Positions 19,304-41,207 of a DNA stretch of 64,000 bases are shown piece after piece. The translations under genes and the position numbers were made by a program. Source of the stretch: an uncultured Anaerolinea sp. (GTDB taxonomy: Bacteria; Chloroflexota; Anaerolineae; Anaerolineales; Villigracilaceae); assembly GCA_964372045.1 (NCBI GenBank), contig CAYJPO010000012.1, forward strand, positions 517 to 64,516, given 5' to 3'. The notes beneath the pieces were generated by a model that made no database searches, was not told the DNA's origin, and was given only the letters and a program-made list of their open reading frames with translations. The first letter of the stretch is position 1. Every line of letters begins with the position of its first letter.

Positions 19304-19561
19304 GCAATATCGGATAATTTGGGTGATATAATCTTTAGTTATCTTATTATTCTATCCCTGTCATTCCAGCCCCATTGCTTCCATCAACAACAAGAATCAG
19401 GCGCCTTCGTCGTAGCTGCTGGTTCAAACCCTGGCATGGGATTTTTTTTTTACCTTTTGAAAAGTCCCTCATGAAGCGAAGGTAATCGAAAATGATACCT
19501 TCCAAGTCCAATGCCTCTTGTGCAAAAGGTTTATTCTCAAAGATCAACGATTGAGGTTCAG

Positions 19562-26455: not shown

Positions 26456-29400
26456 ATGAGGACTATCATGACTTCATTCTATTCATCACGTTCGCTCTCT
26501 CCGTATCACTTTTTTGTTACACTCCTATTCATTCTGACACAGGTGTTCGTATTTTCTCCGGCACAGGCATCGCCTGCGCCGGAACCGGTTGAACGACGAC
26601 CGTTATTTATGCCTGTGGCAGGAGTTGCCTTGGGAGTCCCAAGTGAAGTGTTCATCGGTCAGGAATTCACCTTTACAGCTTCGTTTTCCAACAATGCCAA
26701 TACTTCAGACGCTGATCCTGCCGACACCGGGTATGGTCCTTTCATTGACCTTGTCTTCCCGGTTACCGGCGTGGACGGCGACGATGGTATCGATTTTGTG
26801 AGTGCCAGTTATGGCGGTGCAGCGCTGCTTGGCTCACAGGTCTATGAAAACATTTTTCCGGATGACGATGGCATCGGACTCGGTACCACTGGATGTGTGC
26901 AACATCCCATTGCCGTTCTGGGCGCCAATGTGCCGCCTGTTCCGAGTGACGTGACACAGCCGCGCTACATGACGGTCTGTGGAACTGCGGGCGATAAACT
27001 GGTGACACTGGTCTTGCCCTTTGGTTCTTTCGTGCCGGGGCAACCCACCGCCGAAGTGACAGTTACCGCACAATTGAGTGACCTGGCGGATGTCAGCACT
27101 CCCTTGAACATCCAAGCGGCAGGTGGTTTCCAATATGGCGCGACCCCCACGAACGACTTTTGTTGTTCCCCGTTCGATGCGACCCTTTATAACGTTCCCA
27201 ACCCGGGCGATACTACCACCTGGCCCGGGAGTTCCGTTGAACCGATCATCATGACCCTTGCAAAGACATATGTCGGTCCAGAGAACGAAACCGCCACCGG
27301 ACCTAACTTCCCGCGCCAGTATCGGATCAGCGTGGATATTGCCGATGGGCAGACGGTAAGCAATTTGAACTTTGTGGATATCCTGCCGGATAATATTCAA
27401 TTCATCGGCATCGATTCGGTCACCGGCGGCAGTTATGCGGTCAACGGCAGTTTGCCATCCACATCCACCCCTGGCGGGACGCTTGACATCACCCTCGACA
27501 ATCCGGTCACGGGTACTTCGGGCAGTTCGGATGCGATTTTGTTATTTAGCTTCTACGTTGACCGGCTGGATGCAAGCAGTAACCCGGTTATAGACGCAAG
27601 CACGGGTGAACAAATCAACCCCACCAATAACAGCTCTTCTGCCAGCGGACCATGGGATCCGATCGATCCGCGTGATGATACCCTCCCTTTGCCGACCGCA
27701 TCAGGGGCATGTGCGCCCCCCTGTGTCGGCATTCAGGATGAATCCATTGCCGTGCAGAAAAGTGTGAGAAATATCACCGATGGCAGCAACAGCCCCGGTG
27801 ATGTTCTGGAATATACGCTTGAATTTCAGGTCTCGGATTTCTTTGGTTTTGAGGATGTCGTTCTGACCGATGTGATCTCGGATGGACAACGCTTCGACAC
27901 AGGATTCGCGCCCACGTTGGATTTTTCCGCCAACCCGGCTTCCAATGATTTCAGCGGCAACTTTGTACTGAATACCAATTACACAGTGGATAGTACAGAT
28001 ATAGGTAACACCGGTCCTGGTTGGCCTGCATCTGATGGAACAGACGGAACACAAACGATTACTTTCAATGTTTCAGGTTTGTTGGGAGAACAACTCCTGG
28101 GCGGGTGTGTGAATCCCACGGCAGCGAACAACCCGCCGGTCTGCACTGGAAGCGGTCCGTATGGAAATGACTCCACAGTCGGCACGATCCGCTTCCAAAC
28201 AATTATCCAGGATGAGTTCAGCGATGAATACCCATCCGGTGATGAATCTGTGGATCATGGCGATACCCTCGATAATAACGTGGATATTACCGGCACCGTG
28301 CTCGACCTGACGGATTACAGTCCGGTAACCGGTTTTGATACAGCCGCCGGTACGCCTGTGGACGACAGCGGCGCGGGTGTGACGATTGCCTTTGGCGGTT
28401 TGGTTAAATCCATTTACGCGGTTAATGGCAGCACCACCATTCCCGAGTATTTGACTCCAGGCGACGAGGTCACGTATTCCCTGACCTATACCCAGCCTGC
28501 CAGCGATTTTGAAGAGACTGTATTTACTGATTACCTGCCCCTGCCGGTCTATGATGCGAGTGAGATTACTGTGTTGAGTAATGCCGCCTGTGGTGGGACA
28601 TATCCGGCGGGCACGATCTGCCTTGGAAGTGGCGATACATTCCATACGACCTTCGCATCTGTCTGGGGGACGACCTACATCCCAACCCTGAGCGTTTCCC
28701 CCGCCGGAAACTCGTTCACGGTGACGTACCCAGAGTTTGACGACCTCAGCAATCGGAACACAATCATTGAATTAATGGTTACGGTCACGGTTCAGAATGA
28801 CCCCTTTGCTGACGGACTTTTCCTGACCAATCAGGCTGCCGCGCTAGAGGGCACCACCAATGCCGGCGATCAGAATGTTGATTCCATTATTCAGATCAGA
28901 TTAGGCGAGCCTGACCTGAGCACGTCGAAGACGGCGGTTTCCACCAGCCATACACCGGTGGCAGATGTTACCTTTGCGTCTGATGACCCGCTGGTCCCGG
29001 CTTCAAATTTGATCGTGGGACAATTTGCGTCGCCTGCCAACGCAGGTGTTCCATTCACGACCCCGCTTGGGTCGGACGATCTGAGCACCGATCCGGATGA
29101 TTTGACTCTTGCATTCAATCGTTTCAACAGCACCATGTTCGGCGTGGATGATCAAGATCTGGTCAAATATGCCATCCTGATCGAGAACCGCGGTCATAGC
29201 GCAAATGGCGGTTATGACATTGTCGTCTCGGATATTATGCCGCCGCAAATGGACTTTCCCGGCGGCGCTTCAGCCAACCTAAACCTCCAGCTTTATCGCG
29301 GCGATGGAGAACCATTGACATTTGCGGTCATCTATTTTGGCGGTGACGGCGAATACGGCGGCGGTGATGATATTGTCACGCCCGGCGATTCGACAAATGC

Positions 29401-32400
29401 TCACCTCATCTTCACATCCGGATACGCCATTCGTGTCAATGACCCGACTTCCGGCATTGATGCGGGCAAGGGTGCCTGTCAGGTGCATGAAGCCACCAGC
29501 GGCAGGAACGTCATCGTCATCACATATGACCTGCAAGTGGATGGCGACTACGACCCCAATACTATCATTGAGAATACGACCACGTTCCACAACTACGGTG
29601 GGACGGAGGGCGGACCCAATCACCTGCCCAAGCCTGAAGATGAGGATGCCAATATCGTTGTTGGAACACCATCCTTTGCACAAGGTGAAGGCAAGACCCT
29701 GCTCAGCACCGAATTGGACAGCGTGCTCACACCGGCAACTGTGACCGGCAATACCCGCACTCAGGCGGTGATCGGAGAACTCGCCACCTATGAGTTGGAG
29801 GTCAACCTGCATGAAGGCAGACTGCCCGCCGCGCAACTAGTGGACACGCTCGACGCCGGTCTTTCGTTTGTTCGGATCGATAGTGTTACTGTTTCTCCAG
29901 GTGTTACTGTACAAACGACTCCCGGCACTGGCACAATCCCCACAAATGTAACGATTGCCAGCGCCAATGGCGGGGTTGCCAATCAGTTGACCTACAATTT
30001 CGGGGATATCGTCAATGCCAATACCGATGACGCCGTGAACGAGACGATCACCATCGTCTATACAGCTGTGGTGAATAATGTTGGCACAAATCAGAGCGGT
30101 ACAGGTCTCAATAACAGTGCCCAATTGACTTGGGGTGGCGGTGGTTCCCTGCCTGCCATTACGTCCGAAGAAGTGATCGTCCTCGAACCTGTGATGACCA
30201 TTAACAAAGATACGGTTCCCTCCACCATTACCAGCCTGGATGCGGGCGATACCCTCGACTACAGAATTATCATCACAAACAGTGGCGCCACTGAAGCCTA
30301 CGATGTGACCTTCAGCGATCCGCTGCCGCAGTATTACGAATCTATTTCGATCACAGGTGTCAGCGGTACAGGCGGGGCGGCGCTCTCCGATTTTGAGATC
30401 GTCGGTTCGGGCACTTTCCCTGCTGATCCGTATATTCTCCAAACCACTGTCGCAGCCAACCTGGACTTGAATCCCGGCGAGACCATCATCGTCGATCTGC
30501 AAGGTACTCTTTCTAATTCCATTCCGCCAAGTTCAACATTGAGTAACACCGGCACCGTCATGTGGACGAGTTTGAATGGTAATGTTGTTGATCGTTCCAC
30601 GCACAACCCGGGAGAATCCGACGAACGCACGGGAACGAATCCGGTTGTGCAGCCCAATGATTACACAGCCAGCAGTTCTGTGGTGATCGATATCAGCAAT
30701 CCGCTGCTTCTGACCAAGTCCCTGATCGCTACATCTGAAAGCCACACGACCTTGAACGGCGGTACTGGTCTTGAAGATGTCGCCATCGGTGAGATCGTGC
30801 GCTATCGTCTGGCGGTGCGAATTCCAGAAGGCACCAGCCGCAACCTGCAATTCCAGGATCGTCTGCCCGCGGGCATGACCTTCCTCGATGATGGTACAGC
30901 ACGCCTATCCTTCGTCTCCGATGCCGCTGTTTTGGGAAGCGTCAGTTCAGCCGCATCTGGCGGCATTCCTGCCATTGTCTGCGCGAACGATGACGGTAGC
31001 TCTGCGGCAGCTGCCAGCATGACTTGTACCTTTGCAGACGATAATATATCCAATTCACTGGCGGGTTTTGACGATACATTCACATCCGGCAGAAACGTTT
31101 ACTTTAAGTTCGGTGATGTGACCAACAGCGAAAATGACCTGAACGACGAGTTCATCGTCGTGGAATTCAATGCCATCGTCGATAATGCAATTATCACCGG
31201 ACTGCCTTCCAGCCAGAACGATAATGGCGACACCCTGATCAATGATTTCGTTGCACACGAAAACGGTTCACCCTCACCTGTAGGTGTGAATTCGGACGAT
31301 ATCAACGTTACGGTACGCGAGCCGGTCATCAATAATGTGGATAAAGTGCTTACCGCGCCGATTCCCACCAGCTTTGACGCGGGCGATACCGTTTCCTTCA
31401 CCGTTGCCTTTTCAAATACCGGCTCGGTCGACGCCTTTGATGTGGTCTTGCGCGATACGCTTCATCCCGCCCTCGACCTGACCTCGGTTTCCGCTCCAAC
31501 GTATACATCCTGCTCCATCGTACCCACTGGGACGAATAACTCTGATACGGGTGCGGGCAATCTCGTTCAATACACCTTTGACCGGGTAGCTTCGAACTGC
31601 CAGATCAGCCTGACATACACTGCCAATATTTTGTATAGTGTTACCCCCGCTCAGGTTCTTACGAACACCGGCGTGGTGACCTATACCAGCCTTCCCGGAA
31701 CAAATGGCACCACCAGCAATCCCACTGGTTCCAGCGTCCCTGGCGCCAGCGGCACAGAGACTGGTGAACGCAATGGGACATACCCAACAATCATCGAGCC
31801 GAATGATTACATGCATTCGGACAATGCCCAGCTCACAATTGACAATGTTGTACCGACAAAATCCATTATCGCCACATCTGAAACTCATACCAGCGATGCA
31901 ACGGCAGATACAATTGTGGATCCGCGCCCCGTTGCTATTGGTGAGATCATGCGCTACCGCCTGGTGGTTCAAGTTCCCGAAGGCTCCAATACAGACTTGA
32001 CATTGACCGATCAGCTATCCACTGGCGTCACGTCTATTTTCGATACAACTACCGAGATCAGCACGTTGAACTTTGGGGCAGGCAATTTTGGCAGCCTCGA
32101 TTTCGGGGCTGCTTTGGAAGCCGCCAATGGGGTGACGGTTGACCTGTACAATGCGGGCGGGGCACCGCAATTTACCGCGCCGTTCAATTTAGTGACTCTC
32201 AACGGTTCGAACTTGCTGACCTTCAACCTTGGCGATATCGTCAACAACGACAACGATGCCAATGCGGAATACATCATCATCGATTTCAATGTCCTTGTGG
32301 ATAATGAGGGCGGTATTGATAATGGTGATGTCTTTGCGAATAATTTTGGTGTTTCAGTTAATTCGCGCCCCGTGGTTACCTCCAATACGGTTTATGCGCG

Positions 32401-35400
32401 GGTGAATGAACCGGCTATCACCAATCTCGACAAAACGGTCACGTCTGCGGGTCCGTATGATGCGGGCGATACGGTCAGCTATTCTGTGACATATACCAAT
32501 TCAGGCACATCCGACGCCTTTGAAGTGCAAGTCCTCGACGCCTTGAATTCGACCTACTTTACGATCAATACCGGCTCTGTCTCAGTGACTTCGGTTTGCG
32601 CAACCCTCCCGGCGACTGTGGTGACCTCGAGTAACACCGTCGATGTGACGGTCAGCCGTGTGCCGGTCGGTTGTGTGGTCACGATCACCTACTCGGCTGT
32701 CCTGACCACCTCGGTCAACCCAAGCACAAATTACCTCAACACTGCCAATATCACATACACCTCTCTGCCCGGCACGGGTACGACCGGCAACCCGACCGGT
32801 TCGAACACTCCCGGCGGGAGCGGCGCGGCGAATGGCGAACGTAATGGCGTAGGTGGTGTGAACGACCAAAACGATACCGATACCGCCCAGATCACCATCG
32901 CGGCGATCCAGCCGGAGAAGCGTATCATCGCAACCTCTGAGACGCACACCATCGACCCGGCGAATCCCACCAACATCCTCGTGGATGATATTTTAACAAA
33001 TCCGCGCCCGGTTGTGGTCGGCGAAGTGATGCGTTATCAGTTGGCGATGACTGTGCCCGAAGGCACCAGCACTGACTTTGTAATCTCCGACCAGCTTTCC
33101 ACTGGCGTCACACCGATCTTTGACGCGACCACTGAAATCCGCACGTTGAATTTCGGCGTACCATTCACGAGCGTTGATTTTGGCGCGCCATTGGCGGCAG
33201 CCAGCACCGGCACAGTTGACCTGTATAACGCTGGTGGGACTCCACAGTTCACCGCGCCGTTCAACCTGGTGACGCTCAACGGTTCGAACCTGCTGACCTT
33301 CAACCTCGGCGACATCGTCAACAACGACCTCAACGACGGCAACGCGGAATACATCATCGTCGAGTTCAATGTGCTGGTGGATAATGAAGCCGGTAACCAA
33401 AACCTGACCGTCTTCGACAACGACTTCACGGTTTCGATCAACGGTGCGACCAGCGGGACTTCCAACACGGTCTACCATCGCGTTGTCGAGCCGGTCCTTG
33501 CCACCACCAAGAACGATAACGACCCCGACGGCTGGGCGTACGGTCAGACCGTTACCTATACGGTTCAAGTTGCCCATGTCAGCGGCGATCCCACCCCAGC
33601 GGACAACAGCGCGGCAGATGCCTTCGATCTCGTCGTCACAGACACCATCCCTGCCGGGTTGACGTACGTGACCAATACAATGACCGCCCCTGCCGGTTGG
33701 ACGTTGGATCAATCCGCTGCTCCCATCCTGATCTGGCGCTGTACTTCACCCGTCTGTGCCATGACCTTGGCGGGCGGAGCTGTCAACCTGACTTATCAAG
33801 TGGTTGTCAATGATGTGACAGTCACCCCGCATATTGACGGAAACACAACCGTGACCAACACCGCCGTCACTACCTGGACTTCCCAGCCCGGCGCGGGCAC
33901 GACCGGCAATTCCACCGGCTCGAATACCCCTGGCGTCAGCGGCGCGACGGACGGTGAGCGCAATGGTTCAGGTGGTGTGAACGACTACACAGTGACCGTC
34001 AACCACACTGATGGTCTGGCTCCTTACTATGCGCTCGGCAATCGCGTCTGGTTCGATACGGACAACAGCGCCGACATCAATGGCGCGGAAGTAGGCGTTG
34101 GCGGCGTCCAAGTCCGCTTATATGAATCCGACGGCGTTACTCCCGTCTATGAACCGAATAGCGTCATTCCGCGTGTGACCACCACCAACGCCACCGGGTA
34201 TTACCTGTTCGATTATCTCGAACCGCGTGACTACATCGTGGTCATTCCAGCGGCAAACTTTGACAACACAGGTGTTGGCGATACCACCACCGCTTTAGTG
34301 GGTTATTGGTCTTCTCAAACATCCAGAGACGCCGCCGGAGCCATCATCGAAACTGCCGCGCCTGGTCCCAATAACGATACCGACTCGGACGATAACGGCA
34401 CTCGACAGGCAAGCGGCGATGTCGTCTCGCTTCCGATCACCATCGGTCCGGGCGAACCGACCGGGGAAGTTGCCCCAGGCGGACAGGGTGCCCAGCCCGA
34501 TGACCGCGCCAACATGACCGTGGACTTCGGCTTCTACAAGGTCGCCATTGGCAATCTTGTCTATGAAGACATCAATGCCAACGGAACCTATGACAACGGA
34601 ATCGACACCCCGCTCAATAACGTGCCTGTCGAGTTATTGTCCTCAACCGGTGTGCTCATCGAGTCGACGAGTACGAACGGAAGCGGGCTTTACTCCTTCG
34701 TGAACCACCCTGACGGCGATTACATCGTGCGCGTCACCACCCCGACGGGTATGGTCAGCACCATTGATACGTTTGCCGCCACCGATAACGCCAACCCGGA
34801 TAACGAACCCACCGGTGAAGTGGATGACAACGACAACGGCATCGGCATTGGCGCGGATACGCTCATCAATGTGTCCTCCGGCGTCCTGACTATGGACTCG
34901 GGTGAAAGCGGCAGTACTCCCGCCGTCATCACGGTGGATGACAACACCGGTACGACCACCGACACCGGGCTGGACTTCGGCTTTGTCTACCCGTACGCGC
35001 TCGGCAATCGCGTCTGGTTCGATACGGACAACAGCGCCGATATCAACGGCGTGGAAGTCGGCGTGGATGGTGTGCTCGTCACGCTCTATCACGCTGATGC
35101 ACTTGGCGTTGCCACCACACCGGTCACGGTCGGTGGCTTGCCTGTCAGCGATACGACTACGAACGGCGGCTATTACCTCTTTGACTATCTCAACCCAGGC
35201 AACTATGTTGTAGTTCTTCCGGCATCCAACTTTGCTGTTGGCGCTGTTCTCGAAGGCTACTGGTCATCGCAGACGTTTCGCAATGACACCACCGGAGCCA
35301 TCACCGAAACCCCCGCGCCCAATCCCGACCTCGGAGTCGATGGCGCAGTCGGCGGCGGCGATGACGATGAAGACTCGGATGACAACGGCACGCTCCAAAC

Positions 35401-38400
35401 CGGCGGCACGTTCAACGGAGCCGTGATCGCTCAGTCGGCCACACTCGGACCGAGCGGCAATACCGAGCCGACGAATGACAACGACCTTGAGACTGGCGTC
35501 AACCACGGCGATCAGCCCGATGGACGCTCGAACCTGAGCGTGGACTTCGGCTTCTACAAGGTCAGCGTGGGTAACCTTGTCTGGGCAGATGCCGACAAAG
35601 ATGGCGTCTATGATGCTGGCGAGCCGCTCTTCCAAAATGCGACAGTCTATCTCTATGCCGCGAATCCTACTACGAATGCAGTCATCGGCGCGGCGCTTGC
35701 TTCCACGACAACAGACATCAACGGCGTCTATAACTTCGATACCCTGCCCGAAGGCAATTACATTGTCGCTGTGGATGCGCCGGTTGGTACATTCAGCACC
35801 ATCGACTCGGCGGATACGATCACCCCGAACACCAATACCGATGATGCGGATAACGGCATCGGCGAGACTGGCGGAACGGTGTACTCGAACGCGGTCTTCC
35901 TCGAAGCAGGCAATGCCGGGATCAACAACGTTGTGGATGACGGCGCAGGTCCGCTGACGATCGACTTCGGCGCGACCTACAATCCCACCATGGACTTTGG
36001 CTTCACGCCGGTCTACTCGCTTGGCAACCGCGTCTGGTTCGATACCAACAACAACCGCATCATCGATAACTTCGAAGTTGGGGTGGATGATGTAGCCGTT
36101 CTACTTTACGATATTTCCGGCAATCAGATCCTTATTGGCGCGGACGGTATCCTTGGAAGTGCCGACGATGGCACGACCAACCCGGTGCTCACCGACAACG
36201 GCGGCTATTACCTCTTCAACGGACTTGAAGCGGGCGATTATGTGGTTGTCATTGCTGCGTCCAATTTTGTCAGCGGCGGTGAACTCGAAGGCTATTGGTC
36301 TTCTGAAACCCGCCGCGATACAACTACGGGTCTGGTCACCGAACCTCTGGCGCACTCGCCTGAAACGAGTCAGGACTCGGACGATAACGGCACGCTCCAG
36401 ACCAGCGGCGCATTCAACAATGCAGTTATTGCGCAGACAGTCACGCTGGGTCCAACCTTCAATGAACCTCAAAACGAAGGCAGCGTCGCTGGGGCACTCG
36501 ATGCAACCCTGCCCGGCAATCAGCAAGGTCAACCCGACGCGCAGGCGAACATGACCGTGGACTTCGGTTTCTACACCATCACCCTCGGTGACCTGGTCTG
36601 GATCGACACTGATAACAGCGGCACCGTCACAGGTGCAGAGGCTGGTATCGACGGCGTGACCGTTCATCTTTACCCGGTGAATGGTATTGGTGCGCCAGTC
36701 GGCTCACCTGTCATTGCCACCACTGCTGGCGGCGGACTCTATTCCTTCACCGGTCTGCCGCAGGGCAACTACATTGTCCACCTGCCCGATACTAACTTCA
36801 TGGGGGCGGCTGCCCTCCGCGATTACTATTCCAGCACCGGCGCGGGCAATCTCTACGAAGTACCGGCTGCTCCCAACCCCGATATTGTCACCGTCGATTC
36901 GGATGACAATGGCACGGAAGTCGGCACTCTCGGCTTCACTGGCGGTTATATCCAAAGCGGCATCTTTGCGCTCACGCCGACTTTTGAAGGTTCGTATGAC
37001 AATACCATCGGAACAACCAACGAACCGCGCGTAGACTTTGGTGTATATCGCAGTCCGCAGGTTAATCTCTCCATTGTCAAGACCGAAACGCCTGACAAGG
37101 GCTATTACCTGCAAGGTGAAACGACCACCTACTCCATCCTGGTCACCAACCACGGTCCGGCAGACGTGATCAACGCGGTCATTGACGACGCCATACCGCT
37201 CGATGGTTCCTCCAACCCGATGTTCACCGAATGGGACTGGGTATGCACTACCACTGGCGGCGCGACCTGCAATCCGCAGCTCAATTTGACCGGCGACTTT
37301 ATCGACACGGTCGATATGCCCTACGGCTCGACCATCACCTACACGGTCTCAGTGACCGTAGCCGGCACTGCCACGGGCACATTGGTCAACACTGCCACTG
37401 TCACAGCTCCTGCGAGCGTCACGGAAGGCAACCTGACGGATAATAGTTTCAGCGATACGAACAACCCCGCATCCATCACCATCACGAAGACAGATGGCTT
37501 GACCGTTGTTGCGCCGAACTCACCGCTGACATATACCATCACGGTCACAAACAATGGCGCGGTTGACCTTACCAGCCTCACAGTCACAGATACCCTGCCG
37601 GGTGAGGTGATCTTCCAAAGCGCGAATCCTGTACCCGCGACTGCCCCGGCTCCCAACACGCCGGGTGGAACGCTCACCTGGACGGGACTCAGCCTGCTCT
37701 CTGGCGCATCGACGGACATCTCGGTCACGGTTCTGGTCATCCCGACGGCGATCGGACCGAACCTCCTCAACTCTGTCACCGTCACCGATGCGAACACGAA
37801 TGCCACCGCCTCAGCGACAGATTCAGATGTCGTCGCCTGGGATAAGACCAAGGTTTTGGCTGGGACGAGCGAAGCCTTCACACCTGAGACGATCACACCG
37901 CCTTCTACACTTCGTCCGGTCGCCATTGGTGAGGTCCTTACTTACCAGATCAGCGTGGAAGTGCCTGCGAACTCGACCCTAACCAATCTCCGGGCGTTGG
38001 ATATCATGGATGCAGGCTTGGCATTCGTGCGCTGTGTCAGCATTGCGCCAGATGCGAATCTCACAACTGACCTGACGGGTGGGTTTGCGGCGGCTTGTAA
38101 TGCTCCATTTAGCCTGCTTGTCGGTCCAATCCCGAATCCGGTTATCTCGCGTGAACCGGTGGGTGATCCCAGCACGTACAATGACGGACGCCGGGTTGAT
38201 TTCAACCTCGGTAATGTCACCAACACGGATCTGGCGAACGTCCAAACCCTCACCATCACCTACGAAGCCATCGTGCTTGATATTCCGTCCAATGTGCAGG
38301 GCACCCCGGGTCTTGATAACGGGGTGACATGGTCGTGGCTGGGAGGCTCGCTTTCTGCTTCTGCCAACGCGGTCGAGATCAAAGAGCCTAAATTGAGCAT

Positions 38401-39406
38401 CTCCAAGACCGCCGACCCGCTCATTGCTGCGATCGGTTCGACAATTACGTTCACGGTGTCGATCGCACATACCCCTGATAGCGCTTTGGATGCCTTCGAC
38501 GTGGTCGTCACAGATGACCTACCCGAAGGGCTCACGTTGATCCCCGGCACGATCAGCTTTACCGGTCTGCCTGCGGATATCACCGACTTTGATACTGCAA
38601 CCGGCGTGCTCACATTCACCTGGCACACCTTCCCGTTGAGTGCGTCCAGCGTTATCACCTTCCAGACGACCTTCGTTGGACCGGCCCCGGTGACGAACGC
38701 CGCCAACGTTGCGTGGACAAGCCTGCCCATCGACCCGCAACCGCAACCGAGCGGTCCGCCGGTGTTACTTTCCACCTTCAATGACTTTGCCACCGAGCGT
38801 TGGTATGACCCGACAGACCTTACCGGTGTGAACGATTACGGTGTGAGTGCTTCCGTTGTCGTGAATGCACCGTCCGGCGGGAAGTGGCTGCCAAAGACCG
38901 GTTTTGCGCCGGATGTCATCACCGAACTCCCGCCCATGCCTGCGGACTTTGCCTACGCCCAAACCGACGTCTGGATCGAGATTCCAAAGCTCGATCAGAA
39001 ACTGACGTTGGTGGGTGTGCCGTTCAACAACGAGACCGGCGAGTGGGATCTGCGCTGGCTTGGAAGTGAAGCCGGCTGGCTGGAGTACACTGCCTTCCCG
39101 ACGTACTCCGGTAATTCTGCCATCACTGCCCACGCCACCCTGCCTACCGGCGAGGATGGTCCCTTCGCGCAACTGGACAGCCTCAGTTATGGCGACCAGA
39201 TCATTGTCCATATCAACGGTCAGCGCTACATTTATGAAGTGCGCGCGAAGCTCCAGGTACTGCCTGAGGCAGTCCGCTCCGTCCTCAAGCATGAAGAAAT
39301 TTCGTGGCTGACCCTCATCACGTGTAAATCCTATAACGAGAGGACAGGCGAGTACAAATATCGCAGTGTTGTGCGCGCCGTGTTGCTCACGGTTGAGGAT
39401 GAGTAA
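26456..39406 (+). CDS. Giant secreted adhesin-like protein 2 (4316 aa): signal peptide, many DUF11/isopeptide pilin-D2-like domains, 3 SdrD-B pairs, LPKTG, C-terminal sortase domain
   Basis: Signal ending in AQA; repeated xKS/xKT...IGE..xY...D.LP.G domains; YALGNRVWFDT at 34028, 34994 and 36014; LPKTG 38888-38902; sortase His 39131, TLITC Cys 39323, Arg 39362. Confidence 0.9.
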   Translation: MRTIMTSFYSSRSLSPYHFFVTLLFILTQVFVFSPAQASPAPEPVERRPLFMPVAGVALGVPSEVFIGQEFTFTASFSNNANTSDADPADTGYGPFIDLVFPVTGVDGDDGIDFVSASYGGAALLGSQVYENIFPDDDGIGLGTTGCVQHPIAVLGANVPPVPSDVTQPRYMTVCGTAGDKLVTLVLPFGSFVPGQPTAEVTVTAQLSDLADVSTPLNIQAAGGFQYGATPTNDFCCSPFDATLYNVPNPGDTTTWPGSSVEPIIMTLAKTYVGPENETATGPNFPRQYRISVDIADGQTVSNLNFVDILPDNIQFIGIDSVTGGSYAVNGSLPSTSTPGGTLDITLDNPVTGTSGSSDAILLFSFYVDRLDASSNPVIDASTGEQINPTNNSSSASGPWDPIDPRDDTLPLPTASGACAPPCVGIQDESIAVQKSVRNITDGSNSPGDVLEYTLEFQVSDFFGFEDVVLTDVISDGQRFDTGFAPTLDFSANPASNDFSGNFVLNTNYTVDSTDIGNTGPGWPASDGTDGTQTITFNVSGLLGEQLLGGCVNPTAANNPPVCTGSGPYGNDSTVGTIRFQTIIQDEFSDEYPSGDESVDHGDTLDNNVDITGTVLDLTDYSPVTGFDTAAGTPVDDSGAGVTIAFGGLVKSIYAVNGSTTIPEYLTPGDEVTYSLTYTQPASDFEETVFTDYLPLPVYDASEITVLSNAACGGTYPAGTICLGSGDTFHTTFASVWGTTYIPTLSVSPAGNSFTVTYPEFDDLSNRNTIIELMVTVTVQNDPFADGLFLTNQAAALEGTTNAGDQNVDSIIQIRLGEPDLSTSKTAVSTSHTPVADVTFASDDPLVPASNLIVGQFASPANAGVPFTTPLGSDDLSTDPDDLTLAFNRFNSTMFGVDDQDLVKYAILIENRGHSANGGYDIVVSDIMPPQMDFPGGASANLNLQLYRGDGEPLTFAVIYFGGDGEYGGGDDIVTPGDSTNAHLIFTSGYAIRVNDPTSGIDAGKGACQVHEATSGRNVIVITYDLQVDGDYDPNTIIENTTTFHNYGGTEGGPNHLPKPEDEDANIVVGTPSFAQGEGKTLLSTELDSVLTPATVTGNTRTQAVIGELATYELEVNLHEGRLPAAQLVDTLDAGLSFVRIDSVTVSPGVTVQTTPGTGTIPTNVTIASANGGVANQLTYNFGDIVNANTDDAVNETITIVYTAVVNNVGTNQSGTGLNNSAQLTWGGGGSLPAITSEEVIVLEPVMTINKDTVPSTITSLDAGDTLDYRIIITNSGATEAYDVTFSDPLPQYYESISITGVSGTGGAALSDFEIVGSGTFPADPYILQTTVAANLDLNPGETIIVDLQGTLSNSIPPSSTLSNTGTVMWTSLNGNVVDRSTHNPGESDERTGTNPVVQPNDYTASSSVVIDISNPLLLTKSLIATSESHTTLNGGTGLEDVAIGEIVRYRLAVRIPEGTSRNLQFQDRLPAGMTFLDDGTARLSFVSDAAVLGSVSSAASGGIPAIVCANDDGSSAAAASMTCTFADDNISNSLAGFDDTFTSGRNVYFKFGDVTNSENDLNDEFIVVEFNAIVDNAIITGLPSSQNDNGDTLINDFVAHENGSPSPVGVNSDDINVTVREPVINNVDKVLTAPIPTSFDAGDTVSFTVAFSNTGSVDAFDVVLRDTLHPALDLTSVSAPTYTSCSIVPTGTNNSDTGAGNLVQYTFDRVASNCQISLTYTANILYSVTPAQVLTNTGVVTYTSLPGTNGTTSNPTGSSVPGASGTETGERNGTYPTIIEPNDYMHSDNAQLTIDNVVPTKSIIATSETHTSDATADTIVDPRPVAIGEIMRYRLVVQVPEGSNTDLTLTDQLSTGVTSIFDTTTEISTLNFGAGNFGSLDFGAALEAANGVTVDLYNAGGAPQFTAPFNLVTLNGSNLLTFNLGDIVNNDNDANAEYIIIDFNVLVDNEGGIDNGDVFANNFGVSVNSRPVVTSNTVYARVNEPAITNLDKTVTSAGPYDAGDTVSYSVTYTNSGTSDAFEVQVLDALNSTYFTINTGSVSVTSVCATLPATVVTSSNTVDVTVSRVPVGCVVTITYSAVLTTSVNPSTNYLNTANITYTSLPGTGTTGNPTGSNTPGGSGAANGERNGVGGVNDQNDTDTAQITIAAIQPEKRIIATSETHTIDPANPTNILVDDILTNPRPVVVGEVMRYQLAMTVPEGTSTDFVISDQLSTGVTPIFDATTEIRTLNFGVPFTSVDFGAPLAAASTGTVDLYNAGGTPQFTAPFNLVTLNGSNLLTFNLGDIVNNDLNDGNAEYIIVEFNVLVDNEAGNQNLTVFDNDFTVSINGATSGTSNTVYHRVVEPVLATTKNDNDPDGWAYGQTVTYTVQVAHVSGDPTPADNSAADAFDLVVTDTIPAGLTYVTNTMTAPAGWTLDQSAAPILIWRCTSPVCAMTLAGGAVNLTYQVVVNDVTVTPHIDGNTTVTNTAVTTWTSQPGAGTTGNSTGSNTPGVSGATDGERNGSGGVNDYTVTVNHTDGLAPYYALGNRVWFDTDNSADINGAEVGVGGVQVRLYESDGVTPVYEPNSVIPRVTTTNATGYYLFDYLEPRDYIVVIPAANFDNTGVGDTTTALVGYWSSQTSRDAAGAIIETAAPGPNNDTDSDDNGTRQASGDVVSLPITIGPGEPTGEVAPGGQGAQPDDRANMTVDFGFYKVAIGNLVYEDINANGTYDNGIDTPLNNVPVELLSSTGVLIESTSTNGSGLYSFVNHPDGDYIVRVTTPTGMVSTIDTFAATDNANPDNEPTGEVDDNDNGIGIGADTLINVSSGVLTMDSGESGSTPAVITVDDNTGTTTDTGLDFGFVYPYALGNRVWFDTDNSADINGVEVGVDGVLVTLYHADALGVATTPVTVGGLPVSDTTTNGGYYLFDYLNPGNYVVVLPASNFAVGAVLEGYWSSQTFRNDTTGAITETPAPNPDLGVDGAVGGGDDDEDSDDNGTLQTGGTFNGAVIAQSATLGPSGNTEPTNDNDLETGVNHGDQPDGRSNLSVDFGFYKVSVGNLVWADADKDGVYDAGEPLFQNATVYLYAANPTTNAVIGAALASTTTDINGVYNFDTLPEGNYIVAVDAPVGTFSTIDSADTITPNTNTDDADNGIGETGGTVYSNAVFLEAGNAGINNVVDDGAGPLTIDFGATYNPTMDFGFTPVYSLGNRVWFDTNNNRIIDNFEVGVDDVAVLLYDISGNQILIGADGILGSADDGTTNPVLTDNGGYYLFNGLEAGDYVVVIAASNFVSGGELEGYWSSETRRDTTTGLVTEPLAHSPETSQDSDDNGTLQTSGAFNNAVIAQTVTLGPTFNEPQNEGSVAGALDATLPGNQQGQPDAQANMTVDFGFYTITLGDLVWIDTDNSGTVTGAEAGIDGVTVHLYPVNGIGAPVGSPVIATTAGGGLYSFTGLPQGNYIVHLPDTNFMGAAALRDYYSSTGAGNLYEVPAAPNPDIVTVDSDDNGTEVGTLGFTGGYIQSGIFALTPTFEGSYDNTIGTTNEPRVDFGVYRSPQVNLSIVKTETPDKGYYLQGETTTYSILVTNHGPADVINAVIDDAIPLDGSSNPMFTEWDWVCTTTGGATCNPQLNLTGDFIDTVDMPYGSTITYTVSVTVAGTATGTLVNTATVTAPASVTEGNLTDNSFSDTNNPASITITKTDGLTVVAPNSPLTYTITVTNNGAVDLTSLTVTDTLPGEVIFQSANPVPATAPAPNTPGGTLTWTGLSLLSGASTDISVTVLVIPTAIGPNLLNSVTVTDANTNATASATDSDVVAWDKTKVLAGTSEAFTPETITPPSTLRPVAIGEVLTYQISVEVPANSTLTNLRALDIMDAGLAFVRCVSIAPDANLTTDLTGGFAAACNAPFSLLVGPIPNPVISREPVGDPSTYNDGRRVDFNLGNVTNTDLANVQTLTITYEAIVLDIPSNVQGTPGLDNGVTWSWLGGSLSASANAVEIKEPKLSISKTADPLIAAIGSTITFTVSIAHTPDSALDAFDVVVTDDLPEGLTLIPGTISFTGLPADITDFDTATGVLTFTWHTFPLSASSVITFQTTFVGPAPVTNAANVAWTSLPIDPQPQPSGPPVLLSTFNDFATERWYDPTDLTGVNDYGVSASVVVNAPSGGKWLPKTGFAPDVITELPPMPADFAYAQTDVWIEIPKLDQKLTLVGVPFNNETGEWDLRWLGSEAGWLEYTAFPTYSGNSAITAHATLPTGEDGPFAQLDSLSYGDQIIVHINGQRYIYEVRAKLQVLPEAVRSVLKHEEISWLTLITCKSYNERTGEYKYRSVVRAVLLTVEDE

Positions 39407-39459: not shown

Positions 39460-39475
39460 TAAGCATGCGGTGATT

Positions 39476-39636
39476 ATGGCTGTAGCAAAGTCAGTTGACG
39501 AACTTTTGGTTTTATGGCACAGGCTTAACGCGAAAAGCGCGAAGTGAGCGAATGTTCGCGAAATCTATTAAAAATTCGCGTTATTCGCCTTTTTGCGAAA
39601 TTCGCGTTAAGGTTTTGCCGACTTTGCTACAGCCAT
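39476..39636. mobile_element. MITE-like element (161 bp) with 17-bp terminal inverted repeats and an internal REP-like palindrome
   Basis: ATGGCTGTAGCAAAGTC (39476-39492) and its reverse complement (39620-39636); internal TTAACGCGAA (39525) ... TTCGCGTTAA (39601) with repeated GCGAA/TTCGC; no ORF. Confidence 0.7.
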
Positions 39637-39691
39637 GATACGGTGACAAGTCCCACTATTTTATTGTGACCGCGCTGGGTATAATTGGCTC

Positions 39692-40279
39692 ATGACACCC
39701 CGTTCCCTCAAAGTTTTCCTCTGCCACGCTTCGGTCGATAAACCTGAAGTTGGGAAGTTATACGCCTTTCTCCGCAGTCAAGGCGCAGACCCCTGGCTTG
39801 ATTCAGAGAATCTTCTCCCCGGTCAGGATTGGAATTTCGAGATCCGCAAATCGCTGGATGATTCGGATGTCATCCTGATCTGCCTCTCGAAGAAATCGGT
39901 CAGCAAAGAGGGGTATGTTCAGAAAGAACTCCGCATCGCTCTGGACCTTGCGCTTGAGATGCCGGAGGAACGCATTTTCCTCATCCCAGCCAGGCTCGAA
40001 GATTGCGACCTGCCCTATAGTCTGAAGCCCTATCACTGGGTCGACCTGTACACCCCAAGCGGCATGGAGAAATTGGTCAAAAGCCTCAACCTGCGCGCCA
40101 GGCAGGTCGGTGCGAGATCGCTGTCAGAGGACGGCGCACCTGCCCCTGAGATCAAGAAAACCACCCCGAAGAAAAAACCTCGCGCGAAACCTTCCTCCGG
40201 ACCCACCATCAACATTCACGGAAATGTCACCGGCTCGACGATCGTCGTCGGCGACGATAATCAAGTGGATACCGATTGA
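39692..40279 (+). CDS. TIR_2 domain protein with RHIM-like C-terminal tail
   Basis: KVFLCHAS, DPWLD, LPGQDW, VQKEL (catalytic Glu), IPARLEDC; K/P-rich linker; tail INIHGNVTGSTIVVGDDNQV; leaderless TATAAT-N6-ATG. Confidence 0.88.
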   Translation: MTPRSLKVFLCHASVDKPEVGKLYAFLRSQGADPWLDSENLLPGQDWNFEIRKSLDDSDVILICLSKKSVSKEGYVQKELRIALDLALEMPEERIFLIPARLEDCDLPYSLKPYHWVDLYTPSGMEKLVKSLNLRARQVGARSLSEDGAPAPEIKKTTPKKKPRAKPSSGPTINIHGNVTGSTIVVGDDNQVDTD

Positions 40280-40292
40280 TCTCTTTTGTAAA

Positions 40293-40326
40293 AAACTCCC
40301 CGCGCCATTCACGACGCGGGGAGTTT
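40293..40326. terminator. Bidirectional terminator between TIR and NYN genes
   Basis: Stem aaactccccgcg/cgcggggagttt. Confidence 0.8.
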
Positions 40327-40328
40327 GC

Positions 40329-41078
40329 TTATTCTTTGAGCTTCACAAAGAACAGGGTGGAGCCGTCCATCTCCTGCGCTCGGATGTCGAAGCGGTCTTT
40401 GTATTTGCTGAGCATTTTGGAGAGCTGCTTGTGTCCGTACGTCCGCGGATCGAAGGCGGGGTCGAGTTGGTAAAGCGCATTGCCCATGGTTGCCAATGAT
40501 GCCCAGCCATCCTGTTGGACCGCCATCTCGAACGCCTGTGTCAGCAGGGGAGTGGGGTCTGATTCGTCCCTCTTTTTTGTGCCGCTTTTTTGAGAGCGTT
40601 GTTGCGCCGCTTCTTTCTTGGCGGTGACAAGGTTCTCCGTGTAGACGAATACATCGCAGGCGTTGACAAAAGGCTTCGGCGTTTTCTTCTCCCCAATGCC
40701 CATCACAAAGATACCGGTTTCGCGGATGCGCGTAGCCAATCTGGTGTAGTCGCTGTCACTGGAGACCAGGCAAAAGCCATCCACCACGCCTGTGTGCAAA
40801 ATATCCATTGCATCGATGATCATGGCGCTGTCGGTGGCATTTTTCCCGATCGTATACCGGAATTGTTGAATGGGTTGGAAGGCATGGAAGTTGAGCGTTT
40901 CCTTCCATGAATTCATGTTGTTCGTTGTCCAATCGCCATAGATGCGGCGGACGGTGACCTGTCCATGCCGACCGGATTCAACCAGCATTTGCGGCAGCAG
41001 TCCCGCCTGTGCGTTATCGCCGTCGATGAGCATTGCGATCTTGTTCCTGGAGAGGGATTTTATCTTTTCATCAGCCAT
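40329..41078 (-). CDS. NYN (LabA/DUF88) domain protein with C-terminal OST-HTH/LOTUS domain
   Basis: LIDGDNA, RRIYGDW, GKNATD, VSSDSDY, and PAFDPRTYGHKQL motifs; leaderless TATAAT-N6-ATG at 41078. Confidence 0.9.
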   Translation of the reverse strand: MADEKIKSLSRNKIAMLIDGDNAQAGLLPQMLVESGRHGQVTVRRIYGDWTTNNMNSWKETLNFHAFQPIQQFRYTIGKNATDSAMIIDAMDILHTGVVDGFCLVSSDSDYTRLATRIRETGIFVMGIGEKKTPKPFVNACDVFVYTENLVTAKKEAAQQRSQKSGTKKRDESDPTPLLTQAFEMAVQQDGWASLATMGNALYQLDPAFDPRTYGHKQLSKMLSKYKDRFDIRAQEMDGSTLFFVKLKE

Positions 41079-41207
41079 GACGCCATTATACCTGCTGGTA
41101 TGGCTTTTGATGGGTTCTAAAGGGACGGAATTCCCCCAACGTAATCGGTTATACTCATGCGAGTTTCGTAATGATTCTCTAACCAATCATCTCAAGAGGC
41201 AAAAGGT

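What the first reader, a model, noticed from the sequence alone, without database searches (positions are those of the whole stretch)
39692..40279. TIR effector with a RHIM/BASS-like amyloid signalling tail
Seen: a TIR_2 domain with catalytic Glu (VQKEL, 39926), a disordered K/P linker, and the terminal INIHGNVTGSTIVVGDDNQV (40208-40276), whose IVVGDDN matches the RHIM core (I/V)x(I/V)GxxN. Established: filamentous bacteria encode effector-amyloid motif proteins activated by NLRs carrying the same motif, and TIR NADases need oligomerisation. Inference: an amyloid-templated cell-death or defence effector. No NLR partner is in this window, so it would act in trans.
Basis: partly seen in the sequence, partly recalled or inferred. 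Interest (0 to 1): 0.62.

Follow-up and report, generated by a model that had tools for sequence, protein, structure and literature searches.

The report
TIR effector with NLR-matching tail motif
A small, highly conserved TIR (probable NAD-cleaving) protein of filamentous Anaerolineales bacteria ends in a 21-residue beta-strand motif that also opens a family of NLR-like sensor proteins encoded elsewhere in the same genomes, so it looks like a shared cell-death or defence effector switched on in trans.

Summary
The ORF at 39692-40279 (+, 195 aa) is real. It has a TIR_2 domain (aa 8-126, E 1.7e-26) with invariant Glu79, a K/P-rich linker that AlphaFold2 leaves unstructured, and a conserved tail, TINIxGNVxGSNI(V/I)(V/I)GDDNxV.

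The tail is not RHIM or BASS3. It lacks G-phi-Q-phi-G, and the Pfam RHIM model and a BASS3 profile both fail to match it. The "RHIM core" regex hits eight times in this window alone.

About 25 of the 120 closest relatives of one Anaerolineales NB-ARC+TPR protein start with the same motif behind a lysine-rich leader (hhalign 97.6%, E 2.7e-12). Profiles built from one side find the other side and nothing else. Two MAGs carry both genes, unlinked: 1.16 Mb apart in CFX11, on different contigs in BIN17.

The nearest catalogued motif is the Chloroflexi form of BASS6, which is also the beta half of Pfam EAD10. In an Anaerolineae island that motif joins caspases to a STAND NTPase.

Unusually, the TIR gene sits in a fixed core-genome position, behind a giant sortase-fused surface protein, and is never next to an NLR.

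Amyloid formation, NADase activity and the physical interaction are untested. I class it as a new variant of a known kind.

The parts
39692..40279 (+). Gene for a 195-aa TIR-tail protein (TIR domain, K/P linker, C-terminal beta motif).
   Evidence: ORF list. There are 658 homologues; the best 120 are 173-229 aa, 62-90% identical and cover 89-100% of the query.
39713..40069 (+). TIR_2 domain, aa 8-126.
   Evidence: Pfam PF13676 at E 1.7e-26. PDB sequence hits to PdTIR, AbTir and TcpB. Foldseek top hits are SPARTA TIR-APAZ, TIR-STING and AbTir. pLDDT is mostly 70-87.
39926..39928 (+). Codon of Glu79, the candidate catalytic glutamate in GYVQKEL.
   Evidence: Invariant in 34 sequences. Aligned to the QKEL Glu of PdTIR. 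Catalytic activity is inferred, not shown.
40124..40204 (+). Linker, about aa 145-171, rich in K and P (EDGAPAPEIKKTTPKKKPRAKPSSGP).
   Evidence: Read directly from the sequence. pLDDT falls below 50 from aa 156. A similar lysine-rich stretch precedes the motif at the NLR N-termini, as MPKSSKPKKKQ...
40205..40267 (+). Terminal motif TINIHGNVTGSTIVVGDDNQV, aa 172-192. This is the proposed homotypic coupling, possibly amyloid-forming, element.
   Evidence: - Conserved in the family.
- hhalign against NLR N-termini gives 97.6%, E 2.7e-12.
- It is the only hit of an NLR-derived profile in this window.
- hhalign against the Chloroflexi EAD10/BASS6-type motif gives 95.5%.
40294..40325 (.). GC-rich inverted repeat between this gene and the convergent NYN/OST-HTH gene. 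Probably a shared terminator.
   Evidence: Read directly: aactccccgcg...cgcggggagtt. The simple scan calls a terminator-like site on the minus strand at 40314-40300. Weak evidence.

Best explanation
The gene encodes a cytoplasmic TIR effector whose activity is gated by its C-terminal 21-residue motif.

Proposed mechanism:
1. The same motif, preceded by a similar lysine-rich stretch, forms the extreme N-terminus of a family of NB-ARC+TPR (NLR-like STAND) proteins. These are encoded elsewhere in Anaerolineales genomes.
2. When such a sensor is triggered it oligomerises, and its N-terminal motifs come together into a beta-sheet nucleus.
3. That nucleus recruits the matching tail of the TIR protein, either by templating or by simple beta-augmentation.
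4. The clustered TIR domains become catalytically competent and consume NAD+ or make a signalling nucleotide. This stops or kills the affected cell of the filament.

Shown here:
- Domain identities and conservation of the Glu and the tail.
- Co-occurrence in two genomes without linkage.

Inferred:
- Physical pairing, the amyloid or prion-like nature of the assembly, NADase chemistry, the trigger, and the death or defence outcome.
For: - The TIR_2 domain and invariant Glu79 are present. The fold is nearest to oligomerisation-activated NADases.
- The tail is under purifying selection and unstructured as a monomer.
- The motif is modular. It sits at the C-terminus of a Ser/Thr kinase and YukD-like ubiquitin-like proteins, at the N-terminus of other proteins, and at Roc-COR C-termini.
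- L035 is a 753-aa NB-ARC+TPR protein of an Anaerolineales MAG that starts MPQSKDRKRSAINAKIEIDGNVSGSNIIVGDGNTI. About 25 of its 120 closest relatives start the same way.
- hhalign of the whole TIR family against the NLR N-termini returns only the tail against the N-terminal motif, at 97.6%, E 2.7e-12.
- A profile built only from NLR N-termini finds exactly one hit, the TIR tail, in 28 of 29 TIR loci (481 kb, six frames).
- A profile built only from TIR tails finds exactly the NLR N-terminus in each NLR locus.
- Same-genome pairs exist. In CFX11 the TIR-tail lies at 2.34 Mb and the NLR at 1.17 Mb of one 3.1-Mb contig. In BIN17 (GCA_030834895.1) the TIR-tail is on contig 59 and the NLR on contig 24.
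- In an Anaerolineae island the related EAD10/BASS6-type motif ends two caspases, and a motif variant starts the neighbouring nSTAND5-TPR NTPase. This is the canonical effector/NLR layout.
- A 153-nt metatranscriptome contig, 97% identical, covers 39831-39983.
Against: - No partner lies in this window, and the window's own genome could not be searched.
- In the two same-genome pairs the motifs share only 9-10 of 21 residues.
- The CFX11 NLR is split by a frameshift. This may be an assembly error or a pseudogene.
- The exhaustive profile search of 1.84 billion representatives returned no long NLR at E<=1e-3. NLR-side motifs are therefore too diverged to be found that way, and specificity of pairing is unproven.
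- The gene sits in a fixed housekeeping neighbourhood and is 62-90% conserved. That is atypical for defence effectors.
- Adjacency, the criterion used to define BASS pairs, is not met in 29 TIR loci or in the NLR loci L035, L037, L038 and L043, nor in L044, a second contig carrying the same NLR as L043.
- Nothing here bears on amyloid formation. AlphaFold2 predicts no structure for the tail.
- The metatranscriptome contig may derive from DNA or from a related strain.
Confidence: 0.6

Rival explanations
1. The tail is a self-association or auto-inhibition element of a housekeeping or regulatory TIR protein, for example one acting in NAD metabolism or signalling within the filament. Its resemblance to NLR N-termini reflects a common beta-strand oligomerisation module, not a dedicated sensor-effector pair.
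For: - The gene is a fixed resident of a core neighbourhood: peptidase M3, GAF-PAS histidine kinase, giant surface protein, TIR, then aminotransferase, ROK, CofD, GAPDH and PGK.
- It is strongly conserved.
- It is never adjacent to an NLR.
- The motif also occurs on kinases, ubiquitin-like proteins and Roc-COR proteins.
Against: - Every other carrier identified belongs to the conflict-system repertoire: NB-ARC, NACHT, nSTAND5, caspases, Roc-COR and TCAD2-like proteins.
- The reciprocal profile searches are specific.
- A lysine-rich stretch precedes the motif on both sides.
Confidence: 0.2
2. The protein works with the giant sortase-fused surface protein encoded immediately upstream. The tail would be a docking, sorting or cargo signal for that envelope machinery.
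For: A gene ending in a sortase domain stops just upstream of the TIR gene in 24 of the 27 loci that include upstream sequence. This holds across genomes in which the downstream genes differ.
Against: - L005, L033 and L034 keep the TIR-tail gene without a sortase gene upstream.
- By reading, the TIR protein shows no obvious signal peptide, LPXTG-like sorting motif or membrane segment.
- In the window a hairpin and a 167-bp repeat element separate the two genes.
- The motif occurs in many proteins with no such neighbour.
Confidence: 0.08
3. The tail is a true RHIM/BASS3 homologue. It would form a RHIM-type amyloid with a RHIM-bearing partner.
For: - IVVGDDN matches (I/V)x(I/V)GxxN literally.
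- BASS3 members read GVQ(V/I)GDxN, so the phi-x-phi-G-D-x-N half is similar.
Against: - G-phi-Q-phi-G occurs in 0 of 29 tails and 0 of 23 NLR N-termini. The strict regex matches 46 of the 90 BASS3 sequences I pasted.
- The BASS3 profile scores the tails 3-9 bits against a background top of 8.2, while BASS3 members have a median of 42. hhalign gives 24%.
- There is no Pfam RHIM hit.
- The regex occurs 8 times in this window.
Confidence: 0.04
4. The tail is a low-complexity ending with no specific function, and the similarities are compositional.
For: The motif is short, rich in G, N, V and I, and unstructured in the model.
Against: - Conservation is position-specific across hundreds of sequences, with three invariant residues.
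- Only 29 hits at E<=1e-3 appear among 1.84 billion representatives.
- The profile-profile E-value is 2.7e-12.
Confidence: 0.03

Closest known systems
Bacterial amyloid signalling sequences (BASS) pairing effectors with NLRs (Dyrka et al. 2020, bioRxiv 10.1101/2020.01.06.895854). The nearest family is BASS6, internal name C09 (PMC8086366 supplement).
   Same: - A motif of about 21-25 residues, rich in G, N, V and I and poor in K, P and L, at the C-terminus of an effector and the N-terminus of NB-ARC/TPR proteins.
- It occurs in filamentous bacteria, including Chloroflexi.
- TIR2 is one of the non-Bell effectors those authors noted.
- Chloroflexi BASS6 members (A9WJ48 SGNRSVAIGGNVSGSTIITGDQNQ; A7NJM5 GERSVAIGGDVTGSVIVTGDRNTV) resemble the tail. 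hhalign against that subgroup gives 95.5%.
   Different: - The genes are not adjacent, whereas BASS pairs were defined within 5 kb and 91% are collinear.
- The full BASS6 profile does not recognise the tail: 6-11 bits against a background top of 9.8, and hhalign 28%.
- The effector is a core, syntenic gene.
- No amyloid data exist for this motif. I also found none for BASS6 in the papers I read.
Effector-associated domain 10, EAD10, Pfam PF19954 (Kaur et al. 2020, PMC7159879; Kaur et al. 2021, PMC8195603).
   Same: - A small non-enzymatic adaptor at the N- or C-termini of both core NTPases and effectors.
- Proposed to couple them by homotypic contact.
[quoted passage not shown]
- Associated with TIR, caspase and ubiquitin-like components.
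- Model positions of about 33-69 cover the xVAIGGNVSGSxIxTGDxNxV motif.
   Different: - The Pfam model does not hit the window protein or any tail.
- The helical first half of EAD10 is missing, and only the beta half is alike.
- EAD10 was described as a mixed alpha+beta domain, not as an amyloid motif.
Bab/Agp antiphage system of E. coli, with the BASS11 motif (bioRxiv 10.1101/2024.11.07.622273).
   Same: An effector and its activator share an amyloid motif. Activation leads to death of the infected cell.
   Different: The genes are adjacent, the effector is a pore-forming Bell-type domain, and the motif family differs. I read only the abstract and outline of this paper.
RHIM, fungal PP and BASS3 motifs.
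   Same: A short beta motif with phi-x-phi-G-(D)-x-N and a role in cell-death signalling.
   Different: The defining G-phi-Q-phi-G core is absent, and the profile tests fail.
TIR NADases activated by oligomerisation: SPARTA TIR-APAZ, TIR-STING, AbTir.
   Same: The TIR fold and conserved Glu. These are the closest structural matches.
   Different: Those are switched on by Argonaute tetramerisation, cyclic dinucleotide filaments or self-assembly. None uses a short terminal motif shared with an NLR.
Genetically dispersed sensor/helper NLR networks of plants, such as the NRC network (PMC9851556, abstract only).
   Same: Many diversified sensors are unlinked from a conserved downstream executor.
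   Different: This is an analogy only. The plant helper is itself an NLR, and coupling is not through a shared terminal motif.

Membership tests
TIR_2 (PF13676) / bacterial TIR NADase | Profile match above the curated cutoff | tested here: met
   93.5 bits against a cutoff of 28, aa 8-126.
TIR_2 (PF13676) / bacterial TIR NADase | Conserved catalytic Glu after beta-C | tested here: met
   Glu79 is invariant in 34 sequences and aligns with the QKEL Glu of PdTIR.
TIR_2 (PF13676) / bacterial TIR NADase | NAD+ cleavage | not testable with these tools
   Needs an enzyme assay.
RHIM / BASS3 | Central G-phi-Q-phi-G core | tested here: not met
   Present in 0 of 29 tails and 0 of 23 NLR N-termini. The family has I or V where RHIM has Q.
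RHIM / BASS3 | Profile similarity | tested here: not met
   No Pfam RHIM hit. The BASS3 HMM scores the tails 3-9 bits against a background top of 8.2 and a member median of 42. hhalign gives 24%.
BASS in general (Dyrka 2020) | Motif of about 25 aa at the C-terminus of an effector, with beta propensity and G/N/V/I-rich composition | tested here: met
   The 21-residue motif contains no K, P or L (direct reading) and is conserved. Beta propensity was judged from the alternating hydrophobic pattern only.
BASS in general (Dyrka 2020) | Same motif at the N-terminus of an NB-ARC/NACHT protein | tested here: met
   This was not shown for the window's own genome.
BASS in general (Dyrka 2020) | Effector and NLR genes adjacent (within 5 kb) | tested here: not met
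   Each of the 29 TIR loci and each NLR locus (L035, L037, L038, L043, and L044, which carries the same NLR as L043) holds a single motif-bearing ORF. The pair is 1.16 Mb apart in CFX11.
BASS in general (Dyrka 2020) | Forms amyloid fibrils or prion-like aggregates | not testable with these tools
   AlphaFold2 gives pLDDT below 50 for the tail. Needs ThT, EM, FTIR or Podospora assays.
BASS6 | Match to the family profile | tested here: not met
   Tails score 6-11 bits against a background top of 9.8, while Chloroflexi EAD10-like sequences score 32-41. hhalign gives 28%. The similarity is confined to the Chloroflexi subgroup, at 95.5%.
EAD10 (PF19954) | Match to the Pfam model | tested here: not met
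   No hit at E<=1 for the protein or E<=10 for the 29 tails. P0168 and P0170 do hit, at 26 bits against a cutoff of 24.1.
EAD10 (PF19954) | Duplicate presence on a core NTPase and on effectors, at termini | tested here: met
   The motif sits on NB-ARC, nSTAND5 and Roc-COR proteins and on TIR, caspase and kinase proteins.

The most novel reading that the evidence does not exclude
Anaerolineales keep one vertically inherited, core-genome TIR protein as a common executioner. Many dispersed, diversifying NB-ARC+TPR sensors plug into it in trans through a short prion-like beta motif. This would be a bacterial sensor/hub-effector network, and the motif would be a previously uncatalogued amyloid signalling family sister to BASS6/EAD10.
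Probability: 0.3. Interest if true: 0.75.

Novelty: new variant of a known kind. Interest (0 to 1): 0.6.

Why it matters
Motif-coupled effector/NLR pairs in bacteria have been found and defined through gene adjacency. Here the same logic appears with the two partners unlinked. The effector is frozen in a housekeeping neighbourhood, while the sensors sit in variable places, at least one of them a defence island.

If the coupling is real, three things follow:
- Adjacency-based mining misses a class of bacterial immune or cell-death circuits.
- It would be a candidate prokaryotic example of many sensors converging on one conserved effector.
- It supplies concrete testable pairs: P0068 with P0251 in MAG BIN17, and the CFX11 pair. 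These could show whether a TIR enzyme can be switched on by templated assembly of a 21-residue tail.

The work also links two separately named catalogue entries. The Chloroflexi BASS6 motif and the beta half of Pfam EAD10 are the same motif.

Tried and rejected
- **RHIM/BASS3 homology.** Rejected.
- **Membership in BASS6 as a whole and in Pfam EAD10.** Profile tests were not met.
- **A partner in cis.** The window and 28 homologous TIR loci were scanned in six frames with three profiles, and no second motif copy was found.
- **Exhaustive tail-profile search of 1.84 billion representatives.** It returned only 29 hits and no long NLR. Two long hits were spurious: a eukaryotic GCP6 and an Ig-repeat protein.
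- **Word-indexed motif search.** It returned only proteins under 92 aa and missed known longer carriers, so it was of no use for architectures.
- **Metagenome scan with NLR N-termini.** The first alignment was too diverse. The second gave four short contigs with no context.
- **Linking more TIR-tail and NLR proteins to one assembly through accession numbers.** Most entries carry none.
- **AlphaFold2 on the family alignment.** It gave no structure for the tail.
- **The promoter scan.** It found nothing convincing upstream of the gene.
- **Contexts of the kinase-motif protein (L009) and the N-terminal-motif protein (L008).** Neither showed a second copy.

Full report
**What is in the window.** The ORF 39692..40279 (+) encodes 195 aa. 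Pfam finds a TIR_2 domain at aa 8-126 (E 1.7e-26, 93.5 bits against a cutoff of 28). Defence-system and NCBIfam libraries give only partial TIR matches, to Argonaute-associated TIRs, retron TIR and Thoeris ThsB. Glu79 (VQKEL, codon 39926-39928) is invariant in 34 homologues. It aligns with the QKEL glutamate of the bacterial TIR PdTIR. An AlphaFold2 model built on the family alignment gives a TIR fold with pLDDT mostly 70-87, and no structure for aa 156-195 (pLDDT below 50). Foldseek places the fold next to SPARTA TIR-APAZ, TIR-STING, AbTir, PdTIR and TcpB. By my own knowledge these are enzymes that become active on oligomerisation. After a K/P-rich linker the protein ends in TINIHGNVTGSTIVVGDDNQV-DTD (aa 172-195).

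**The tail is real; the RHIM label is not.**
- The full-length search returned 658 homologues. The best 120 are all 173-229 aa, 62-90% identical, from Anaerolineales/Chloroflexi MAGs.
- Their alignment keeps the tail as (T/V)INIxG(N/D)VxG(S/G)NI(V/I)(V/I)G(D/N)(D/N)N(E/Q)V, with G177, G187 and N190 invariant.
- The regex (I/V)x(I/V)GxxN hits 8 times in the six-frame translation of this window.
- RHIM, PP and BASS3 are united by G-phi-Q-phi-G (bioRxiv 10.1101/2020.01.06.895854). None of 29 tails has it.
- A profile built from 90 published BASS3 sequences scores the tails 3-9 bits, against a background top of 8.2 and a member median of 42.
- Pfam RHIM does not appear even at E<=10.

**Genomic setting.** The gene is not in a defence island.
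- In the window the order is peptidase M3 (-), GAF-PAS histidine kinase (-), a PAP2 protein, two giant surface proteins of 2180 and 4316 aa that end in sortase domains, the TIR gene, then a convergent NYN/OST-HTH gene and an MFS transporter.
- The same order recurs in other genomes: histidine kinase, giant sortase-fused protein, TIR, then aminotransferase, ROK, CofD, GAPDH and PGK.
- In 24 of the 27 loci that include upstream sequence, a gene ending in a sortase domain stops just upstream of the TIR gene. L005, L033 and L034 keep the TIR gene without it.
- No NACHT, NB-ARC or other STAND gene, and no second copy of the motif, lies within 10 kb in any of 29 loci.

**The motif is modular.** A profile of the tail alone, searched against 1.84 billion representative proteins, gave only 29 hits at E<=1e-3.
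- Apart from fragments of the TIR family, these carry the motif at the C-terminus of a Ser/Thr kinase (P0138), of YukD-type ubiquitin-like proteins (P0131, P0143) and of several domains without a Pfam match.
- It sits at the N-terminus of P0140, P0146 and P0133.
- A second search found small proteins, two of which pass the Pfam threshold for EAD10 (PF19954). Model positions of about 33-69 cover xVAIGGNVSGSxIxTGDxNxV.
- Kaur et al. (PMC7159879) describe the EADs as small non-enzymatic adaptors. One copy sits on a core NTPase and another on effectors, often adjacent but sometimes elsewhere in the genome.
- One of the small proteins (P0178) lies in an Anaerolineae island. There its gene overlaps by 4 bp an nSTAND5+TPR gene whose product starts MSERTITIQGNARGTVLITGDGNRV. 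Two caspases in the island end in GERSVAIGGDVSGSVIVTGDRNTV.
- Another group proved to be the C-terminal ends of Roc-COR GTPases.
- The published BASS data sets show that the Chloroflexi form of this motif is already filed under BASS6, through Chloroflexus A9WJ48 and Roseiflexus A7NJM5. EAD10's beta half and Chloroflexi BASS6 are therefore the same thing.
- The TIR tail aligns with that subgroup (hhalign 95.5%, E 1.3e-8, 28 columns). It does not align with BASS6 as a whole, which is mostly actinobacterial: tails score 6-11 bits against a background top of 9.8, and hhalign gives 28%.

**NLR-like proteins with the matching N-terminus.** Scanning one genome per species for the tail pattern gave 23 loci.
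- Twenty-one are the TIR family, including two paralogues in one MAG.
- One (L035, an Anaerolineales MAG) is a 753-aa protein that starts MPQSKDRKRSAINAKIEIDGNVSGSNIIVGDGNTI. It continues with a P-loop, an NB-ARC match above threshold, and TPR repeats.
- One (L036) is a small TCAD2-like protein with the motif at its N-terminus, next to a NACHT/FGE-sulfatase protein.
- Of the 120 closest relatives of the L035 protein, about 25 begin M(P/A)KSSKxKKKQ...(I)NIGGDVSGSNIIVGHGNTIN. This is a lysine-rich leader followed by the motif, mirroring the lysine-rich linker before the TIR tail.
- hhalign of the entire TIR family alignment against these N-termini returns one hit: tail aa 167-195 against NLR aa 13-40 (97.6%, E 2.7e-12).
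- A profile made only from NLR N-termini picks out the TIR tail and nothing else in 28 of 29 TIR loci. A profile made only from tails picks out the NLR N-terminus and nothing else in every NLR locus scanned.

**Same genome, different places.**
- In MAG CFX11 the TIR-tail gene lies at 2.34-2.36 Mb of a 3.1-Mb contig. An NB-ARC+TPR gene starting MAKKSSKKPKDLEIHIDGNVTGSNILVGENISV lies at 1.17-1.19 Mb. It is split by one frameshift.
- In MAG BIN17 (GCA_030834895.1) the TIR-tail protein P0068 is on contig 59 and the motif-bearing NLR P0251 on contig 24.
- None of the NLR loci seen (L035, L037, L038, L043) has a motif-bearing effector nearby. L044 is a second contig carrying the same NLR as L043 and shows the same.
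- One NLR sits in a defence island with a type I restriction system. The others sit among ordinary genes.

**Reading.** The best-supported model is that this TIR protein is an effector coupled in trans to NB-ARC+TPR sensors through a shared terminal beta motif. Sensor oligomerisation would cluster the tails, and hence the TIR domains. I put this at about 0.6. Whether the assembly is a true amyloid or prion-like template, rather than ordinary beta-augmentation, is open. I would put amyloid at roughly 0.35-0.4 overall, mainly by analogy with BASS1 and BASS3, which were tested, and with the composition rules of BASS motifs. The main rival is a housekeeping TIR with a generic oligomerisation tail. 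It draws on the unusual core-genome position and strong conservation. A link to the upstream sortase-fused giant is suggested by synteny, but it is weakened by three loci that lack the giant gene.

**Limits.**
- The window's own genome is not in the genome collection and could not be searched. The closest tails there are 73-79% identical.
- The organism occurs in sediment and activated-sludge metagenomes.
- Same-genome motif pairs share only 9-10 of 21 residues.
- There is weak evidence of transcription: one 153-nt metatranscriptome contig, 97% identical.

Noticed in passing
window 39473-39639: A 167-bp element with 20-nt terminal inverted repeats (ATTATGGCTGTAGCAAAGTC / GACTTTGCTACAGCCATGAT) and internal TTCGCG-rich repeats lies between the giant gene and the TIR gene. 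In a sediment metagenome that holds the window, it has depth 46-100x against 14-15x for the flanks, and contigs break there. It looks like a multi-copy MITE-like element.
   Followed up: partly
window 19511-26053 and 26456-39406 (+): Two tandem giant proteins (2180 and 4316 aa) carry SdrD_B, DUF11/CLIPPER and Cna-B-like repeats and a C-terminal sortase domain fused to the same polypeptide. A sortase-ended giant gene in this position recurs across Anaerolineales, directly upstream of the TIR gene.
   Followed up: partly
window 40329-41186 (-): A NYN ribonuclease-like domain plus OST-HTH/LOTUS protein lies convergent with the TIR gene. In most related genomes this position is occupied instead by an aminotransferase and a ROK kinase, so the window has a local rearrangement.
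   Followed up: partly
L038 6161-7585: A 474-aa protein whose N-terminal TIR domain visibly resembles the window family, followed by a probable membrane segment and LysM domains instead of the tail. It is encoded between hsdS and hsdR of a type I restriction system, directly upstream of a motif-bearing NB-ARC+TPR gene.
   Followed up: no
L011 10001-17487 (also L012): An Anaerolineae island contains two small helix+motif proteins, an nSTAND5+TPR NTPase with an N-terminal motif variant, two caspases ending in the EAD10/BASS6-type motif, WD40 fragments and an AbiEii gene.
   Followed up: partly
L036 7171-10360: A NACHT protein with a C-terminal FGE-sulfatase domain and a degenerate N-terminal motif (QSIAVGGAVTDSAIIHG). 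It is followed by a small protein with a clean N-terminal motif and a helical region that weakly matches TCAD2.
   Followed up: no
L013 8703-10237: The Roc-COR GTPase gene is split by frameshifts. Its C-terminal extension ends in NIYIGGDVKGGTIIAGDENEVKK. Many short database "proteins" with this motif are fragments of such C-termini.
   Followed up: partly
L023 and L025 (MAG UWPOB_ANAER1): One genome holds two paralogous TIR-tail genes, each preceded by a sortase-ended gene.
   Followed up: no
PMC8086366 supplement against Pfam PF19954: The Chloroflexi sequences filed under BASS6 and the beta half of Pfam EAD10 are the same motif. Neither of the two Kaur et al. papers connects EAD10 to amyloid signalling in the passages my term searches returned.
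   Followed up: partly
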